The notes beneath the pieces were generated by a model. The model was given only the letters and a program-made list of their open reading frames with translations. It did not search any database and was not told where the DNA came from. From the sequence record KC801932: a stretch of 64,000 nt of DNA; one strand, given 5' to 3'. A program made the translations under genes and the position numbers. The stretch comes from Escherichia phage Lw1. Shown in pieces: positions 11,593 to 35,967 of the stretch; the stretch's first letter is position 1, and each line of letters begins with the position of its first letter.

Positions 11593-11626
11593 AAAATAAC
11601 AAAACCCTTGCACGAATGCAAGGGTT
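11593..11626 (-). promoter_or_regulatory. terminator hairpin with embedded promoter (-35 TTGCAT, 17 bp, -10 TATTTT)
   Basis: minus-sense AACCCTTGCA-TTCG-TGCAAGGGTT after dexA, upstream of the 47-aa membrane ORF. Confidence 0.45.
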
Positions 11627-11630
11627 TTTA

Positions 11631-25431: not shown

Positions 25432-25465
25432 AAAGCCCTTGCATTTCTGCAAGGGCTTTTTGATT
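25432..25465 (-). promoter_or_regulatory. terminator hairpin with embedded promoter (-35 TTGCAG, 17 bp, -10 TATATT)
   Basis: minus-sense AAGCCCTTGCA-GAAA-TGCAAGGGCTT then TGTTATATT between regA and the ORF preceding gene 43. Confidence 0.45.
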
Positions 25466-31594: not shown

Positions 31595-31671
31595 TTCAAT
31601 ACCTCGTTGTTGTTGAATGAAGCTGATTATAGTGATCACTTTTTCAAAGTCAATAGATCATTTCAAGATTC

Positions 31672-31812
31672 TGAGCGAAGCGAAGGACACGAACGAAGTG
31701 AGTGTCTAACTACATAACTACACTTTTAAATTTTTATATTTTATATATAGAGAAAAATGTAGTTTTTGGTATGTTTTTTAACCAATCTTACCTATCCGTT
31801 TCGCTTCGCTCA
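31672..31812. repeat. 13-bp perfect inverted repeat (TGAGCGAAGCGAA / TTCGCTTCGCTCA) flanking an AT-rich 115-bp core
   Basis: read directly in the rnh/55 divergent intergenic region; GCGAAG-type sub-repeats on both arms. Confidence 0.7.
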
Positions 31813-31916
31813 CGGAAACGCTTCGCGTTGATTTTATTAAATAATATAGATTGGAAGTAGGTTTGAAACCTGTAATTCCATCAGCTATAATGAATGTATT
31901 CAATTTGGAGAATATA

Positions 31917-32432
31917 ATGACTACTAAGATTTATGCAGATAATGATAAGCTGTATCCGGTTATGTGTAAGTGGAAACAGCAGATCCGTGAAACTGGAGAT
32001 CGCAAAATGCCTGATGACCTGGGTATTGCAATCATGAACATCGCTCACGGTTTGGCCCGTCGATACAACTTCAACCGTTATTCCGAAGATTGGAAAATGG
32101 ATATGATCGATGATGGTATTTCCGCTACGATTTCCGGTTTACACAACTTTGATGAAACCAAATATACAAACGTTTATGGGTATATCAATAAGGCTTGTTG
32201 GCAAGCGTTTGTAACCCGCATTCTCTACGAAAAGAAAGAGAACGCGAAGAAATACAAATACTTCCTGGAACACGTTTACGATAGTGACGATGCTGATATG
32301 ACTTCGATAGCTGATGAAACTTTCATTCAGGATATTCATGATAAATTAAATCAGTATGAAGAGTCCGCGAAAAAACCGAAGGATAAAATCGAGGTTGTGG
32401 ACGAATCGCCAACTTTGGAAATGTTTCTATGA
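31917..32432 (+). CDS. 55: late-promoter sigma factor
   Basis: 171 aa from ATG after GGAG; DDLGIAIMNIAHGLARRYNFNRYS parallels T4 gp55. Confidence 0.85.
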   Translation: MTTKIYADNDKLYPVMCKWKQQIRETGDRKMPDDLGIAIMNIAHGLARRYNFNRYSEDWKMDMIDDGISATISGLHNFDETKYTNVYGYINKACWQAFVTRILYEKKENAKKYKYFLEHVYDSDDADMTSIADETFIQDIHDKLNQYEESAKKPKDKIEVVDESPTLEMFL

Positions 32433-33013: not shown

Positions 33014-34033
33014 ATGAATTATGTGTTAATTGGCGATACACATGCAGGACTTCGCCAGGATAACCCCTGGAACGAAGATAACCTGTATGAAGTATTCAAA
33101 CAGATAGTAGCGTATTGCAAAGAACATGGGATCACTCGCGGTTTCCATGCGGGTGATTTCTTTGATGTTCGAAAAGCAACCACACAGACAACGATGAATT
33201 TCGTTCGTGAAAAGCTGGTTCCTCTTCTGACTGAGGCTGGGATCGTTATCGATACTTTGGTTGGCAACCACGATTGCCAATTTAAAGACAAAATCCGGCC
33301 CAACGCGCCGCGCGAGATACTCAGTCAGTATGAATGCTTTAATGTCATCGACGAACCGACCACAGTCGATTTAGGCGGTGGAAAATCGATTGACCTGATC
33401 CCGTGGATTTGTCAGGAAAACAGTCATAGGATTTTCGAGTTTATCAAACAGTCAAAATCAAATTTCTGTCTGGGACACTTCGAACTTTCTGGTTACTATT
33501 TCTACAAAAACAGTAAAGCGGATCACGGGCTTGAACCGGACTTCTTGAAAAAGTATGAACGCGTTTACTCTGGACACTATCACCATGCAAACGAAGGTGA
33601 TAACGTGTTTTACATCGGTACACCGCTTACTATGAGCGCCAACGATGAAGACGAAACACGCGGGTTTTATGTGTTCACTGGTAAACCTGAACTCACTTTC
33701 ATTGCAAACCCAGTGTGCCACCATCGCCGGATTATGTACCCGTCACAGAAAGATGTTGATCTGGAAGAGTACCGCAATTGTTCTGTGCGTCTGATCGTGA
33801 GTGAAGTTGACAACGGCCTTGCGAAGTTCCAGACGAAGATCGAAGAAATCGCATACGAAATCAGCATCATAGATAAAATTCAGACTGATGCAACCGTAGA
33901 TACTGACTTTGAGATCAAAACCGTCCGTGGGCTAATCAGCGAATATGTTGCTAATATGCAAATAAGCGACGACGAAAAAGAAGATGTTAACAAGCTGATA
34001 AGTGAACTTTACGCGGAGGTGTCAAGTGCATAA
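33014..34033 (+). CDS. 47: recombination endonuclease subunit (Mre11-like)
   Basis: 339 aa (same as T4 gp47); phosphoesterase motifs GDTHAG, GDFFD, GNHD, GHxH. Confidence 0.9.
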   Translation: MNYVLIGDTHAGLRQDNPWNEDNLYEVFKQIVAYCKEHGITRGFHAGDFFDVRKATTQTTMNFVREKLVPLLTEAGIVIDTLVGNHDCQFKDKIRPNAPREILSQYECFNVIDEPTTVDLGGGKSIDLIPWICQENSHRIFEFIKQSKSNFCLGHFELSGYYFYKNSKADHGLEPDFLKKYERVYSGHYHHANEGDNVFYIGTPLTMSANDEDETRGFYVFTGKPELTFIANPVCHHRRIMYPSQKDVDLEEYRNCSVRLIVSEVDNGLAKFQTKIEEIAYEISIIDKIQTDATVDTDFEIKTVRGLISEYVANMQISDDEKEDVNKLISELYAEVSSA

Positions 34034-34085
34034 ACGATATGAAAAATATTTTGGGGAAACCCCATTGTATTTGCCACTGCTTACG

Positions 34086-34301
34086 ATGTTCGGTATTGAC
34101 CATATTGTAAGCGAAAGCGATGATAGTGTATGTTTGACGTTCGTTAAAGGGAACTGGCATTCTTCAAGAACGTTTTCTATCCTGATGCTTGATGCGTTAG
34201 ACGATGATACATTGTCATATGCTCTTGAGGTCGAACTCGTTAATATGGTTGCAGAACTTAGTGAAGGTATTTTAAGTGAAACTAAACTTCAAAAAAATTA
34301 A
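34086..34301 (+). CDS. hypothetical small protein
   Basis: 72 aa from first ATG of track ORF 34002..34301; overlaps gene 46 start; weak. Confidence 0.25.
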   Translation: MFGIDHIVSESDDSVCLTFVKGNWHSSRTFSILMLDALDDDTLSYALEVELVNMVAELSEGILSETKLQKN

Positions 34302-35967
34302 GTATCAGAATATTCTGTCGGTAGGGAATACCCCGATCGAACTTGAATTCGATACTGCAAAGAAAACCCTGATCACGGGTAAAAATGGTGGTGGTAAATC
34401 CACACTGATCGAAGCGTTGACGTATGCTCTTTTTGGTAAGTCATTTCGTGATTTAAAAGTCGGGCAACTGGTAAACAGTGTCAACAAAAAGAAATGTCTG
34501 GTTGAACTGGATATTGAATACGGGAAAGATTCGTACAAAGTCGTTCGCGGACAAAAGCCGAAAGTATTCGAGATCTGGAAAAACGGTGATAAGTTAGCAG
34601 AAGATTCAGCAGCGGGTGATTATCAATCTCAGCTTGAATCCATGCTCAATATTAACCTGGTTGGATTCAAACAGGTAATCGTTTTGGGTACTGCTGGCTA
34701 TACTCCATTCATGGAACTGAAAACACCGGATCGCCGTAAACTGGTTGAAGACCTGTTGTCGCTATCGGTTATCAGTGAAATGGATAAGCTGAACAAATCA
34801 TATGTCCGTGGTGTTAATCAGCAGTTGGATACCCTGTCAATGCAGGTTAACCACATCCAGCAGCAGATCGCTACACACCAGCGCTTCATTGATGAACAGC
34901 GAGCTAAAGCGAACCAGAACAACGCACGATACAAAGAGATCTACGATAGCCACGTTGAAACCGCTAAGAATATCAAAGCACAGCTTATGCAGTTGCAAGC
35001 GGAGATCGCAGAAACGGTGATCACTGGCGCAGACCGAACGGAAGATATAAACAAACTCCGTGATGGATATACGCGCCTCTCTATGACTGTAGAACAGTTT
35101 AAAAAGCTGGAAGTGATGTATCAGAAAGGTGGTGAGTGTCCGGCCTGTAAACAGGCGATTACGCCCACTCCTGAACGCATGGAAGAGATCGCAAACAACA
35201 TCAAAGCGGGTACGCAACGATTAACGCTGATCAAAACCAAACAGGACGAGTTGCAAGGCATTATGAACGAGTTGCTTCAACAGCAACGCGCACTGAATGC
35301 TATGAAAACGAAATACGAAGCCCTGAAAGGTACGCTGCAAAATGAAGTTGCCAACGCTAAACGCGCACAAGCGATCATGGAACAGGCAAGCGCGGAAGTT
35401 GTTATTGATGAAGAACCTGTTAAGCAGTTGCAACAACAGGAAGCAGATCTGAACGATAAACGTCAAGGATATGTGAAAGAAAAATATATCCGTGGTATCG
35501 TTACAGATATGTTAAAAGATTCGGGTGTAAAAGCCAGCATCGTAAAACGTTATATCCCGTACTTCAACAAGCAGATCGCATACTATCTGGATCTGTTGGG
35601 CGCTGACTACCAGTTCACGTTAGATGATGAATTCAACGAATCAATCAAATCACTGGGGCGCGATGATTTTAGTTACGCATCATTTAGCCAGGGTGAACGC
35701 GCACGAATCAACTTATCGATTCTGTTTACATGGCGCGACGTAACAAGCAAAGTTTCCGGCGTGGACCTGTCTCTTCTGATTATGGACGAAGTTTTCGATA
35801 ACGCTCTTGATAAAGAAGGTGCGTTTGCTGTAGGGGCTGTTCTGAATGGTATTGATGGTAATATCATGGTGATTAGCCACAACGATTTAGACCCTGGTGA
35901 TTTCGATCGTCATATCGTCATGGCTAAATTGGGGCGCTTCTCGAAGATGGAAATCAAGAAGTCTTAA
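34276..35967 (+). CDS. 46: recombination endonuclease subunit (Rad50/SbcC-like ATPase)
   Basis: 563 aa; GTG start; Walker A GKNGGGKS, central coiled coil with CPAC zinc hook, C-terminal signature/Walker B. Confidence 0.9.
   Translation: MKLNFKKIKYQNILSVGNTPIELEFDTAKKTLITGKNGGGKSTLIEALTYALFGKSFRDLKVGQLVNSVNKKKCLVELDIEYGKDSYKVVRGQKPKVFEIWKNGDKLAEDSAAGDYQSQLESMLNINLVGFKQVIVLGTAGYTPFMELKTPDRRKLVEDLLSLSVISEMDKLNKSYVRGVNQQLDTLSMQVNHIQQQIATHQRFIDEQRAKANQNNARYKEIYDSHVETAKNIKAQLMQLQAEIAETVITGADRTEDINKLRDGYTRLSMTVEQFKKLEVMYQKGGECPACKQAITPTPERMEEIANNIKAGTQRLTLIKTKQDELQGIMNELLQQQRALNAMKTKYEALKGTLQNEVANAKRAQAIMEQASAEVVIDEEPVKQLQQQEADLNDKRQGYVKEKYIRGIVTDMLKDSGVKASIVKRYIPYFNKQIAYYLDLLGADYQFTLDDEFNESIKSLGRDDFSYASFSQGERARINLSILFTWRDVTSKVSGVDLSLLIMDEVFDNALDKEGAFAVGAVLNGIDGNIMVISHNDLDPGDFDRHIVMAKLGRFSKMEIKKS

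What the first reader, a model, noticed from the sequence alone, without database searches (positions are those of the whole stretch)
31640..31916. Divergent rnh/gene-55 intergenic region with a 13-bp inverted repeat enclosing an AT-rich core
TGAGCGAAGCGAA (31672..31684) and its exact reverse complement TTCGCTTCGCTCA (31800..31812) flank about 115 bp of very AT-rich DNA, with additional GCGAAG-type sub-repeats on both arms. This is the only strand-switch point in the first 57 kb and is 277 bp without an ORF. Candidates are a replication origin or DNA-unwinding element, a divergent promoter with a regulator binding site, or the remnant of a small inserted element.
Basis: seen in the sequence. 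Interest (0 to 1): 0.5.

Follow-up and report, generated by a model that had tools for sequence, protein, structure and literature searches.

The report
Three-copy hairpin-flanked DNA-unwinding element
The 13-bp inverted repeat is one edge of a conserved ~160-bp element, present three times in this T4-like phage genome, whose AT-rich centres are the three most easily melted stretches of the whole genome and which most likely serve as replication origins.

Summary
TGAGCGAAGCGAA (31672-31684) and its exact reverse complement (31800-31812) are the only perfect 13-bp inverted repeat in the window.

The arms are probably not partners of one long stem. They are inverted copies of a self-folding 11-nt motif, GA-N-C-GNA-G-N'-GA. 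This motif contains the d(GCGAAGC) "mini-hairpin". Two copies lie on the + strand to the left and two on the - strand to the right of an AT-rich core.

The window is phage RB16. The ~160-bp element occurs three times per genome: rnh|55, gene 3|p185 and gene 24|uvsY. It sits at the same three loci in about 62 Pseudotevenvirus genomes and in a deeper lineage. All ten strict matches to the 11-mer in RB16 lie in these elements.

The three cores rank 1, 2 and 3 as the least stable duplex DNA in 176.8 kb. Outward-facing sigma-70-like promoters flank most sides. Slopekvirus has unrelated sequence at the same three loci, and there too it is the least stable DNA sampled. The loci lie near the orthologues of T4 oriG, oriE and oriF.

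Best reading: origin-type unwinding elements (confidence about 0.45). Rivals are a special promoter or regulatory cassette, a structured RNA, or a mobile relic. The element is not described in the literature I could search.

The parts
31595..31916 (.). rnh|55 intergenic region (322 bp). It sits between the annotated rnh start (31594, - strand) and the gene 55 start (31917, + strand).
   Evidence: RB16 annotation mapped onto the window.
31626..31653 (-). Sigma-70-like promoter TTGACT-16-TATAAT reading leftward into rnh. It lies outside the element.
   Evidence: Consensus scan, 11 of 12 matches. A promoter is annotated at the same place in phage CfP1. Activity not tested.
31669..31829 (.). The repeated element, copy 1 of 3 in the genome. 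Its order is two left hairpin motifs, inner repeat with AT core, then two right hairpin motifs.
   Evidence: 82-84% identical paralogues lie at gene 3|p185 and gene 24|uvsY in RB16. It is conserved at all three loci in about 62 genomes and in a deeper lineage.
31672..31684 (+). It contains 11-mer motif A, GAGCGAAGCGA (31673-31683), which includes the mini-hairpin GCGAAGC.
   Evidence: The base pair closing the motif (alignment columns 12 and 24) is T-A in 12 sequences and C-G in 7, and never unpaired.
31686..31706 (+). Hairpin B, GACAC-GAACGAAGTGA-GTGTC. Motif B (31691-31701) sits on a 5-bp Watson-Crick stem.
   Evidence: The stem is 83% paired across 19 sequences, with compensatory A-T to T-A changes. 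The same design recurs in 280 unrelated instances.
31708..31723 (+). Two tandem copies of the left arm of the inner inverted repeat (AACTACAT, AACTACAC). They look like iterons.
   Evidence: Direct repeat D9 and inverted repeat I2. The number of left-arm copies varies from 1 to 3 between phages and copies.
31724..31756 (.). AT-rich core between the inner arms. It includes the near-invariant TTATATTTTATATATAGAGAAAA (31734-31756). Candidate DNA-unwinding element.
   Evidence: It ranks 3rd least stable in the genome; the other two copies rank 1st and 2nd, at window sizes of 40, 60, 80 and 100 bp. It is invariant or nearly so across 19 sequences.
31757..31764 (+). Right arm of the inner inverted repeat (ATGTAGTT).
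   Evidence: The 8-bp inner helix is 96.7% paired, and 6 of its 8 pairs change on both sides between phages.
31748..31775 (+). Candidate internal rightward promoter, made of TAGAGA (31748-53), a 16-nt spacer, TG (31767-68) and TATGTT (31770-75).
   Evidence: The copy-2 version (TAGAGA-16-TG-TATAGT) passes the consensus scan. The arrangement ATAGAGA-N16-TAnnnT occurs only in the three elements, always on the + strand. The spacing has no indels in the alignment. Activity is inferred, not shown.
31796..31815 (-). Right hairpin 1. On the - strand it reads CCGT-GAGCGAAGCGA-A-ACGG.
   Evidence: The internal mini-stem covaries (G-C in 14 sequences, A-T in 5, none unpaired).
31817..31839 (.). Right hairpin 2. 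It reads AACGC-TTC-GCGTT on the + strand and AACGC-GAA-GCGTT on the - strand. It is followed by GATTTTATTA, so it looks like a terminator on the + strand in this copy only.
   Evidence: Terminator-like hit. There is a compensatory change from AACGC/GCGTT to AGCGC/GCGCT in GAP161 and EC-W2. Copies 2 and 3 lack the T-run.
31863..31891 (+). Sigma-70-like promoter TTGAAA-17-TATAAT reading rightward into gene 55. It lies outside the element.
   Evidence: Consensus scan, 11 of 12 matches. Activity not tested.

Best explanation
The element is one of three copies of an origin-type DNA-unwinding module of RB16/RB43-type T4-like phages.

Shown:
- A ~35-60-bp AT-rich core is the easiest DNA to melt in the genome.
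- On each strand the core is bordered, on its 5' side, by two hairpins. Each hairpin is a short Watson-Crick stem, tandem G·A pairs, two base pairs and a GNA triloop. This is the d(GCGNAGC) mini-hairpin.
- An 8-bp inner inverted repeat brackets the core.
- Outward-facing sigma-70-like promoters flank five of the six sides (both sides of copies 1 and 3, and the right side of copy 2).

Inferred mechanism:
- Early divergent transcription and general negative supercoiling melt the core.
- The flanking mini-hairpins and the inner repeat then extrude and hold the bubble open.
- They present ssDNA/duplex junctions on both strands.
- The phage helicase loader and helicase-primase (gp59, gp41/gp61) can assemble on these junctions in both directions.
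- Alternatively, or in addition, a weak internal rightward promoter supplies a primer transcript, as at T4 oriF.

No dedicated initiator protein is implied.
For: 1. Three paralogous copies lie in RB16 at rnh|55, gene 3|p185 and gene 24|uvsY. The same three loci carry it in about 62 Pseudotevenvirus records. So do JC221 and Phynn and a deeper lineage with 48-84% protein identity.

2. All 10 strict matches to the 11-mer in the genome fall inside the three elements. My rough estimate of the chance expectation is about 0.7.

3. The cores rank 1, 2 and 3 as least stable duplex at every window size tried. At 60 bp they score -58.3, -59.5 and -60.7 kcal/mol, against a genome mean of -80.8 (sd 4.5). 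The next segment scores -64.3.

4. Slopekvirus has unrelated, GATC-rich sequence at the same three intergenic regions. These hold the 8 least stable 60-mers of the 101 kb sampled.

5. The T4 RefSeq record annotates three origins near the same genes. oriF is at the uvsY 5' end. oriG is 2.2 kb from rnh. oriE is in gene 5, 3.4 kb from gene 3. The T4 review places oriE, oriF and oriG at strand-switch regions (PMC3016281).

6. Covariation supports the local hairpins and the inner repeat. Across the helices tested, 83.8% of cells are paired and 14 pairs change on both sides. No shuffle out of 500 reached the observed score. In 280 unrelated instances of the motif, N and N' are Watson-Crick in 273.

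7. The middle loop base is free (A>T>G>C). This matches the GNA rule for DNA mini-hairpins, which a review links to replication and transcription initiation sites: G4 oric, RSF1010 ssiA and N4 promoters (PMC13037366).

8. The same 13-mer lies in the terminal inverted repeats of the archaeal virus MetSV (PMC10342651).

9. Outward promoters flank the copies.
Against: - There is no experimental replication signal of any kind.
- T4's own origins share no sequence with this element, lack the hairpin motif and are not extreme in stability. The positional match is therefore analogy. It is close only for uvsY and within 2-5 kb for the other two. My rough estimate of the chance of three such matches is 0.01-0.03.
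- The cumulative GC-skew minima at copies 1 and 2 are confounded with gene orientation. Copy 3 is not at an extreme.
- AT-rich promoter regions are also unstable. The Slopekvirus similarity may partly reflect shared early promoters, and only 58% of that genome was sampled.
- The flanking promoters point away from the core, so they cannot supply a T4-style R-loop primer.
- The hairpin motif is common between ordinary genes of many bacteria and archaea, so it does not by itself mark origins.
- The core is strongly conserved in sequence, beyond what mere ease of melting requires.
Confidence: 0.45

Rival explanations
1. A specialised promoter or regulatory cassette. The invariant core would be an UP-like, activator-dependent promoter (TAGAGA-N16-TAnnnT) firing rightward toward gene 55, p185 and uvsY. 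The hairpin motifs would act as architectural or insulating sites between divergent transcription units, or as sites for an unknown factor. The function would be timing the expression of late-transcription and recombination genes, not replication.
For: - The internal candidate promoter keeps a fixed spacing and is conserved.
- All three copies point the same way, toward the downstream gene.
- Sigma-70-like promoters abut the element.
- In very distant T4-like contigs, a motif pair alone sits upstream of gene 55 (L010, L328, L290).
- RB16 shows no MotA or AsiA, so a different middle-type promoter class is conceivable (PMC2988021).
- The core's sequence conservation exceeds what a melting element needs.
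Against: - The -35-like hexamer is weak. The copy-1 version is below the scan threshold.
- The arrangement occurs nowhere else in the genome, so it is not a promoter class.
- Genes 55 and uvsY already have near-consensus promoters just downstream, and p185 has a good match.
- The motif pairs upstream of gene 55 in distant phages occur in either orientation.
- This reading does not explain why these are the three least stable sites of the genome.
Confidence: 0.22
2. A structured non-coding RNA gene present in three paralogous copies. The hairpins and the inner repeat would be RNA helices.
For: - The + and - strand RNAs fold far better than shuffles (z = -5.2 and -4.9).
- There is clear covariation in local helices.
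- G·T wobble pairs on the + strand occur in the inner helix of JC221 copy 3 and in L344.
- Copy 1 ends with a terminator-like hairpin plus a T-run.
Against: - There is no Rfam match.
- No usable promoter lies upstream of the left hairpins in copy 1. Everything to the left is transcribed leftward.
- Copies 2 and 3 have no terminator.
- The motifs have two-fold symmetry, with the purine version on the 5' side of each strand. That is a DNA-level property.
- The free middle base of the triloop fits DNA mini-hairpins better than stable RNA loops.
- The long-range stem that closes the RNA fold shows no covariation and breaks in 5 of 19 sequences.
Confidence: 0.12
3. A relic of a small mobile element (MITE-like, or the ends of a hairpin-recognising ssDNA transposon), or a recombination hot-spot cassette. 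It would have been copied to three sites and kept homogeneous by gene conversion.
For: - It has inverted terminal motifs and several copies.
- The central ~75 bp is uniform within a genome but differs between genomes, while the flanks are specific to each copy.
- EC-W2 carries a GAP161-type copy 2 among otherwise EcRAM-type copies, which indicates recombination at the element.
- The motif occurs in arrays and as long inverted repeats around ~700-bp inserts in metagenomes (L093, L086). It is interspersed in many bacterial and archaeal genomes.
Against: - It is fixed at the same three loci across deep divergence. No empty site was seen.
- I saw no flanking direct repeats in the sequences I read, though I did not test this systematically.
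- No transposase is linked to it.
- Slopekvirus has an unrelated AT-rich sequence of similar size, not an empty site, at the same loci.
- Mobility does not explain the extreme and conserved instability of the core.
Confidence: 0.1

Closest known systems
T4 oriF (ori uvsY) and oriG (ori 34): R-loop origins made of a middle-mode promoter plus a downstream unwinding element
   Same: - Same phage family.
- Multiple origins per genome.
- An A+T-rich unwinding element of about 50-100 bp.
- Location next to uvsY and next to rnh, at or near strand-switch regions.
- The candidate internal promoter in copy 3 reads in the uvsY direction, as the oriF primer transcript does.
   Different: - There is no sequence similarity and no MotA box. 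No MotA or AsiA gene was detected.
- T4 origins share no common motif, whereas these three are paralogues.
- T4 origins lack flanking hairpin motifs and are not the extreme stability minima of their regions.
- Here the strong promoters point away from the core.
Single-strand initiation signals built on mini-hairpins: G4 oric, and RSF1010 oriV ssiA/ssiB
   Same: Both use d(GCGNAGC)-type mini-hairpins at a site of replication initiation (PMC13037366). From my own knowledge, RSF1010 oriV has its two signals on opposite strands next to an A+T-rich segment and iterons.
   Different: - Those signals are recognised by specific primases (DnaG, RepB'). T4-type primase gp61 is not known to need a hairpin.
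- The 11-mer here adds tandem G·A pairs and comes in pairs.
- No priming has been shown.
PeSLs, the promoter-early stem-loop cassettes of T4-type phages (Arbiol 2010; Comeau 2014)
   Same: Both are repeated intergenic motifs in T4-like genomes that combine stem-loops with sigma-70-type promoters and are implicated in recombination (PMC4122927).
   Different: - PeSLs are short promoter-terminator composites, preferentially located in hyperplastic regions, with the promoter as part of the motif.
- This element is ~160 bp, has exactly three copies at conserved core-genome loci, has an AT core with no consensus promoter, and has its promoters outside it.
Iteron-type origins (lambda ori, plasmid oriV)
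   Same: There are short repeats: 1-3 direct copies of an 8-mer plus one inverted copy, next to an A+T-rich region. The repeat sequence differs between related genomes.
   Different: - No initiator gene was identified.
- EC-W2 tolerates two different repeat types in one genome. That argues against a single co-evolving binding protein.
- Each copy preserves complementarity between its own arms, which fits a stem as well as it fits a binding site.
Terminal inverted repeats of Methanosarcina spherical virus MetSV
   Same: They contain the identical TGAGCGAAGCGAA within a flanking stem (GGGGTGAGCGAAGCGAATCCCC) at the genome ends. From general knowledge, a protein-primed polymerase starts replication at such ends (PMC10342651).
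   Different: It is an archaeal virus with a linear genome and a different replication mode. It has a single motif per end and no AT core. The link may be coincidental re-use of a stable hairpin.

Membership tests
T4-type R-loop origin (oriF/oriG) | MotA-dependent middle promoter (MotA box near -30 plus a -10 element) | tested here: not met
   I saw no TGCTT box when reading the element. tblastn found no MotA or AsiA, though the queries were T4 sequences recalled from memory. RB43 and RB16 are absent from the list of phages with MotA/AsiA in PMC2988021.
T4-type R-loop origin (oriF/oriG) | A+T-rich DNA-unwinding element | tested here: met
   The cores are the three least stable duplex segments of the genome.
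T4-type R-loop origin (oriF/oriG) | Persistent R-loop, and autonomous replication of origin plasmids during infection | not testable with these tools
   This needs infection experiments.
Mini-hairpin single-strand initiation signal (G4 oric, RSF1010 ssi) | d(GCGNAGC)-type hairpin sequence | tested here: met
   GCGAAGC lies at 31675 (+), 31803 (-) and 31820 (-). N/N' and stem covariation support the hairpin. The loop rule is GNA.
Mini-hairpin single-strand initiation signal (G4 oric, RSF1010 ssi) | Recognition by a primase, and primer synthesis at the hairpin | not testable with these tools
   This needs biochemistry.
Iteron/initiator origin | Tandem iterons bound by a cognate initiator encoded by the replicon | tested here: inconclusive
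   One to three direct 8-mers plus one inverted copy are present. No initiator was found. The neighbouring gene p185 has no Pfam domain and belongs to a PHROG of unknown function. EC-W2 carries mixed repeat types.
PeSL promoter-terminator cassette | An early promoter forming part of a short stem-loop motif, located mainly in hyperplastic regions | tested here: not met
   There are three copies only, at core-gene loci, and the consensus promoters lie outside the element. The definition comes from PMC4122927.
MITE or other small mobile element | Terminal inverted repeats with target-site duplications, and presence/absence polymorphism | tested here: not met
   Inverted motifs are present. I saw no flanking duplications in the sequences I read. 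The element is fixed at syntenic loci in all genomes examined, and no empty site was found.
Described structured RNA family (Rfam) | Match to a curated covariance model | tested here: not met
   Nothing relevant at E up to 10 in the window region. In 20 motif-bearing metagenome loci the only gathering-threshold hit was a tRNA, unrelated to the motif.

The most novel reading that the evidence does not exclude
The 11-nt module (stem / tandem G·A / two base pairs / GNA triloop) is a previously uncatalogued single-stranded-DNA signal used across bacteria, archaea and their viruses. In RB43-type phages, three hairpin-flanked unwinding elements would be the phage's origins. They would fire without an initiator protein and without a MotA-type R-loop. 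Supercoil-driven melting would be followed by hairpin extrusion, creating fork-like junctions on both strands for structure-specific helicase loading.
Probability: 0.2. Interest if true: 0.85.

Novelty: new variant of a known kind. Interest (0 to 1): 0.66.

Why it matters
How T4-family phages start replication is still only partly understood. T4's five origins share no motif, and only two have a worked-out mechanism (PMC3016281).

Here a whole genus carries three paralogous, sharply defined ~160-bp candidate origins. That makes the question directly testable with a cloned fragment, point mutations and marker-frequency sequencing.

The phages concerned appear to lack the MotA system that T4 oriF and oriG depend on. 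If the elements are origins, they would therefore show a second, structure-based route to initiation in this family.

The hairpin motif also turns out to be widespread in bacteria, archaea and viruses, with very clean covariation, and it matches no Rfam family. That makes it a lead in its own right.

Tried and rejected
- **Other copies in the window.** I found none. The paralogues lie outside the 64-kb window, so I fetched the rest of RB16.
- **Transfer into unrelated phages.** Hits in KKP_3664, JC221 and Phynn first suggested this. All three turned out to be T4-like relatives with the element at syntenic loci.
- **The 13-bp repeat as a long-range stem (giant hairpin or cruciform).** Rejected as the conserved feature. 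No pair covaries, pairing breaks where the right motif switches type, and RB16 copy 3 has its right motifs in swapped order.
- **A third small hairpin (TGGT...ACCA).** It is not supported across relatives.
- **GC skew.** Minima coincide with copies 1 and 2 but are confounded with gene orientation.
- **A general promoter class.** The internal TAGAGA-N16-TAnnnT arrangement occurs only in the three elements.
- **T4 origins as a check.** They have no hairpin motif and no extreme instability.
- **p185 as a possible initiator.** It has no recognisable domain.
- **Literature searches.** Searches for RB43/RB16 origins, for the motif strings and for Pseudotevenvirus transcriptomes found nothing on this element. 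One search was wasted on prefix matches.
- **Slopekvirus paralogy.** It is real for rnh|55 against gene 3|p185 but weak for 24|uvsY, and may partly reflect shared promoters.

Full report
**Identity of the window.** The region is 99.8% identical to Escherichia phage RB16 (HM134276, genus Pseudotevenvirus) and about 95% identical to RB43, Miller and CfP1. The annotated rnh starts at window 31594 on the - strand. Gene 55, the late sigma factor, starts at 31917 on the + strand. The intergenic region is therefore 31595-31916.

**The observation.** TGAGCGAAGCGAA (31672-31684) and TTCGCTTCGCTCA (31800-31812) are exact reverse complements 115 nt apart. This is the only perfect inverted 13-mer pair with a gap of 200 nt or less in the window. 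Markov simulations give a mean of 0.21 such pairs per window. The repeat alone is thus only mildly improbable. What follows shows that it is real.

**Surroundings.** Two near-consensus sigma-70-like promoters lie outside the repeat and point away from it:
- TTGACT-16-TATAAT (31653..31626, - strand) toward rnh.
- TTGAAA-17-TATAAT (31863-31891, + strand) toward gene 55.

Rfam finds nothing relevant.

**It is a three-copy element.**
- A sensitive BLAST of the intergenic region reported three places per genome.
- After fetching the rest of RB16, I found the stretch 31672-31826 again at 82-84% identity. One copy lies between gene 3 and the unknown gene RB16p185 (record 100793-100950). The other lies between gene 24 and uvsY (record 137798-137942).
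- All three loci carry the element in about 62 Pseudotevenvirus records.
- The more distant phages JC221 (rnh|55 and 24|uvsY) and Phynn (rnh|55) carry it too.
- A deeper metagenomic lineage has a full element at each of the same three loci. Its proteins are 48-84% identical to RB16's (Rnh 73%, gp55 80%, gp24 48%, UvsY 75%).

**Anatomy.**
- *Left side.* There are two 11-mers of the form GA-N-C-GAA-G-N'-GA, 18 nt apart start to start: GAGCGAAGCGA and GAACGAAGTGA. Each sits on a short Watson-Crick stem, for example GACAC...GTGTC.
- *Right side.* There are two inverted copies of the same 11-mer, 17 nt apart start to start.
- *Centre.* A near-invariant AT core (TTATATTTTATATATAGAGAAAA) is bracketed by an 8-bp inner inverted repeat. 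The left arm of that repeat is often duplicated in tandem.
- *After the core.* A conserved TAnnnT follows at a fixed spacing.
- The pattern GA[GA]CG[AT]AG[CT]GA occurs 10 times in the genome, always inside the three elements. My rough estimate of the chance expectation is about 0.7.

**What pairs with what.** I counted pairs on a 19-sequence alignment.
- The local hairpins and the inner repeat are 83.8% paired. Fourteen pairs change on both sides. The covariation score is 0.327 against 0.148 for shuffles, and none of 500 shuffles reached it.
- The pair closing motif A is T-A in 12 sequences and C-G in 7, and is never unpaired.
- The mini-stem of the right motif is G-C in 14 sequences and A-T in 5.
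- The inner repeat is 96.7% paired, and six of its eight pairs covary. The variants are AACTACAT/ATGTAGTT, ATGTACTG/CAGTACAT, ATGTCTAC/GTAGACAT and ATGTCCAC/GTGGACAT.
It breaks in the five sequences where the right motif is of the other type. In RB16 copy 3 the two right motifs are even in swapped order compared with RB43.

So the 13-bp inverted repeat reflects inverted copies of a self-folding motif, and a conserved long stem is not supported.

**Within-genome uniformity.** The central ~75 bp is the same in the three copies of a genome but differs between genomes. The flanks are specific to each copy. EC-W2 is a mosaic: copy 2 is of the GAP161 type while copies 1 and 3 are of the EcRAM type. 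A single co-evolving binding protein is therefore unlikely. Each copy only needs its own arms to match.

**The hairpin motif is a widespread module.**
They also found 84 viral stretches.
- The hosts range from Halobacteria to Bacteroidota, Acidobacteriota and Pseudomonas.
- The motif lies mostly between ordinary genes, in either orientation, and sometimes in arrays of up to 16 copies.
- In 280 distinct instances, N and N' are Watson-Crick in 273. My calculation from the base frequencies gives about 60% expected by chance.
- The two pairs flanking the 11-mer are Watson-Crick in 86% and 73% of cases, against 52% and 26% for shuffled partners.
- The middle loop base is free (A>T>G>C). This is the GNA-triloop rule of the "extraordinarily stable" DNA mini-hairpin d(GCGNAGC). 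A review links that hairpin to replication and transcription initiation sites: G4 oric, RSF1010 ssiA and N4 promoters (PMC13037366).
- The identical 13-mer lies in the terminal inverted repeats of the archaeal virus MetSV (PMC10342651).
- Twenty motif-bearing loci gave no Rfam match to the motif; the one hit was a tRNA.

The purine-rich, stable version of the hairpin is on the + strand at the left of the element and on the - strand at the right. In other words, it lies on the 5' side of the core on each strand. This two-fold symmetry is a property of the DNA.

**Physical property of the core.** I used nearest-neighbour duplex energies. The three cores are the first, second and third least stable segments of the ~176.8-kb genome at window sizes of 40, 60, 80 and 100 bp. 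They lie about 4.5-5 sd from the mean, and there is a gap before the fourth segment.

**Cross-genus test.**
- Slopekvirus (KP15-like) has no such element in its rnh|55 region. It has instead a GATC-rich, 78% A+T sequence.
- That sequence has a paralogue in the gene 3|p185 region and a weak one in the 24|uvsY region.
- In the 101 kb I sampled, the eight least stable 60-mers all fall in those same three intergenic regions.
- Different sequence with the same physical extreme at the same three loci argues for a function tied to unwinding.
- Caveats: part of the similarity is promoter-like (TTGAYC-N17-TATAAT), and only 58% of the genome was sampled.

**Comparison with T4.**
- The T4 RefSeq record annotates oriF at the 5' end of uvsY, oriG inside gene 34 (2.2 kb from rnh), and oriE inside gene 5 (3.4 kb from gene 3).
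- The T4 review notes that oriE, oriF and oriG lie near strand-switch regions, that T4 origins share no motif, and that oriF and oriG consist of a MotA-dependent promoter plus an unwinding element (PMC3016281).
- The three RB16 loci thus fall in the neighbourhoods of three different T4 origins. The match is close for uvsY and within 2-5 kb for the others. My rough estimate of the chance of this is 0.01-0.03.
- The T4 origin sequences have no hairpin motif and are not extreme in stability.
- I found no MotA or AsiA in RB16, using T4 queries recalled from memory. RB43 and RB16 are not in the published list of phages that have them.
- The resemblance is therefore functional analogy, not membership.

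**Promoters.**
- Copy 3 is flanked by two 11-of-12 promoters pointing outward. The left one runs antisense into gene 24.
- Copy 2 has a rightward promoter toward p185 and an internal candidate, TAGAGA-16-TG-TATAGT.
- The internal arrangement ATAGAGA-N16-TAnnnT is found only in the three elements, always on the + strand, with indel-free spacing.
- It could supply a primer transcript, as at oriF. Equally, it could be the real function of the core, as in the promoter-cassette rival.
- Divergent outward transcription would, by the twin-domain model (established knowledge), load negative supercoils onto the core.

**Conclusion.** The best-supported reading is an origin-type unwinding element (confidence about 0.45).
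- Shown: the copies, their conservation, the hairpins and the extreme instability of the cores.
- Inferred: melting, hairpin extrusion, helicase loading or priming, and replication itself.
- Rivals: a specialised promoter or regulatory cassette (0.22), a structured RNA (0.12) and a mobile or recombination relic (0.10).

I found no description of this element in the papers I could search.

Noticed in passing
window about 33675-34333: Compared with HM134276, the window lacks about 540 bp between genes 47 and 46. This matches the 531-bp 'putative homing endonuclease RB16 1' (RB16p054). The flanks are locally divergent. The window is therefore an RB16-like genome without that homing endonuclease gene.
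   Followed up: partly
window 11601-11628 and 25432-25459: There are two perfect 12-bp hairpins with 4-nt loops and nearly the same sequence (AAAACCCTTGCA and AAAGCCCTTGCA with their complements). They look like a repeated intrinsic terminator.
   Followed up: no
L004 25768-25796 (RB16 record about 137767-137795): A near-consensus sigma-70-like promoter (TTGACC-17-TATAAT) lies immediately left of copy 3. It points leftward into the 3' end of the late gene 24, so it would make an antisense transcript. No ORF is annotated there.
   Followed up: no
L003 38029-38814 (RB16p185): This is a 261-aa protein of unknown function (phrog_7322, no Pfam domain). It is transcribed against the surrounding late genes 3, 2 and 4, right next to copy 2. 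It is 82% identical in Slopekvirus and 60-64% identical in the deeper lineage.
   Followed up: partly
L009 5783-6086; L154 30357-30737; L155 24822-25131 (Slopekvirus): The three syntenic intergenic regions of KP15-like phages are 75-82% A+T. They are rich in GATC: 9 sites in 304 bp, against 6.9 per kb in the rest of the sampled genome. One contains the palindrome CTACAATGATCATTGTAG. This suggests Dam-methylation-sensitive sites.
   Followed up: partly
L023, L027, L031 (Enterobacter phage EC-W2): EC-W2 is mosaic at the element. Copy 2 and its flanks are of the GAP161 type, while copies 1 and 3 are of the EcRAM-01 type. This points to recombination at or near the element.
   Followed up: no
L086 711-1168; L035; L093 7845-8738; L331 950-1170: Metagenomic and viral contigs carry the hairpin motif in other layouts. 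One has a tandem array of 16 copies with a ~21-nt period. One has inverted arrays around a ~700-bp insert in a 68% G+C contig. One 94-kb viral contig has a perfect inverted repeat of about 45 bp (my count by eye) that includes the same TGAGCGAAGCGAAGG.
   Followed up: partly
L281, L285, L291, L293, L298, L348 (IMG/VR contigs of about 90-110 kb): A group of related ~100-kb phage contigs carries the motif pair at the tip of a long hairpin (CCCCTTTATCTCTT...AAGAGATAAAGGGG), directly upstream of a conserved gene.
   Followed up: no
L010 4743-4772; L328 and L290 near 3000; L324 2484-2511: In very distant T4-like contigs, a motif pair alone (no AT core, no opposite half) sits upstream of the gene 55-47 cluster, in either orientation. 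In one contig it sits next to gene 3.
   Followed up: partly
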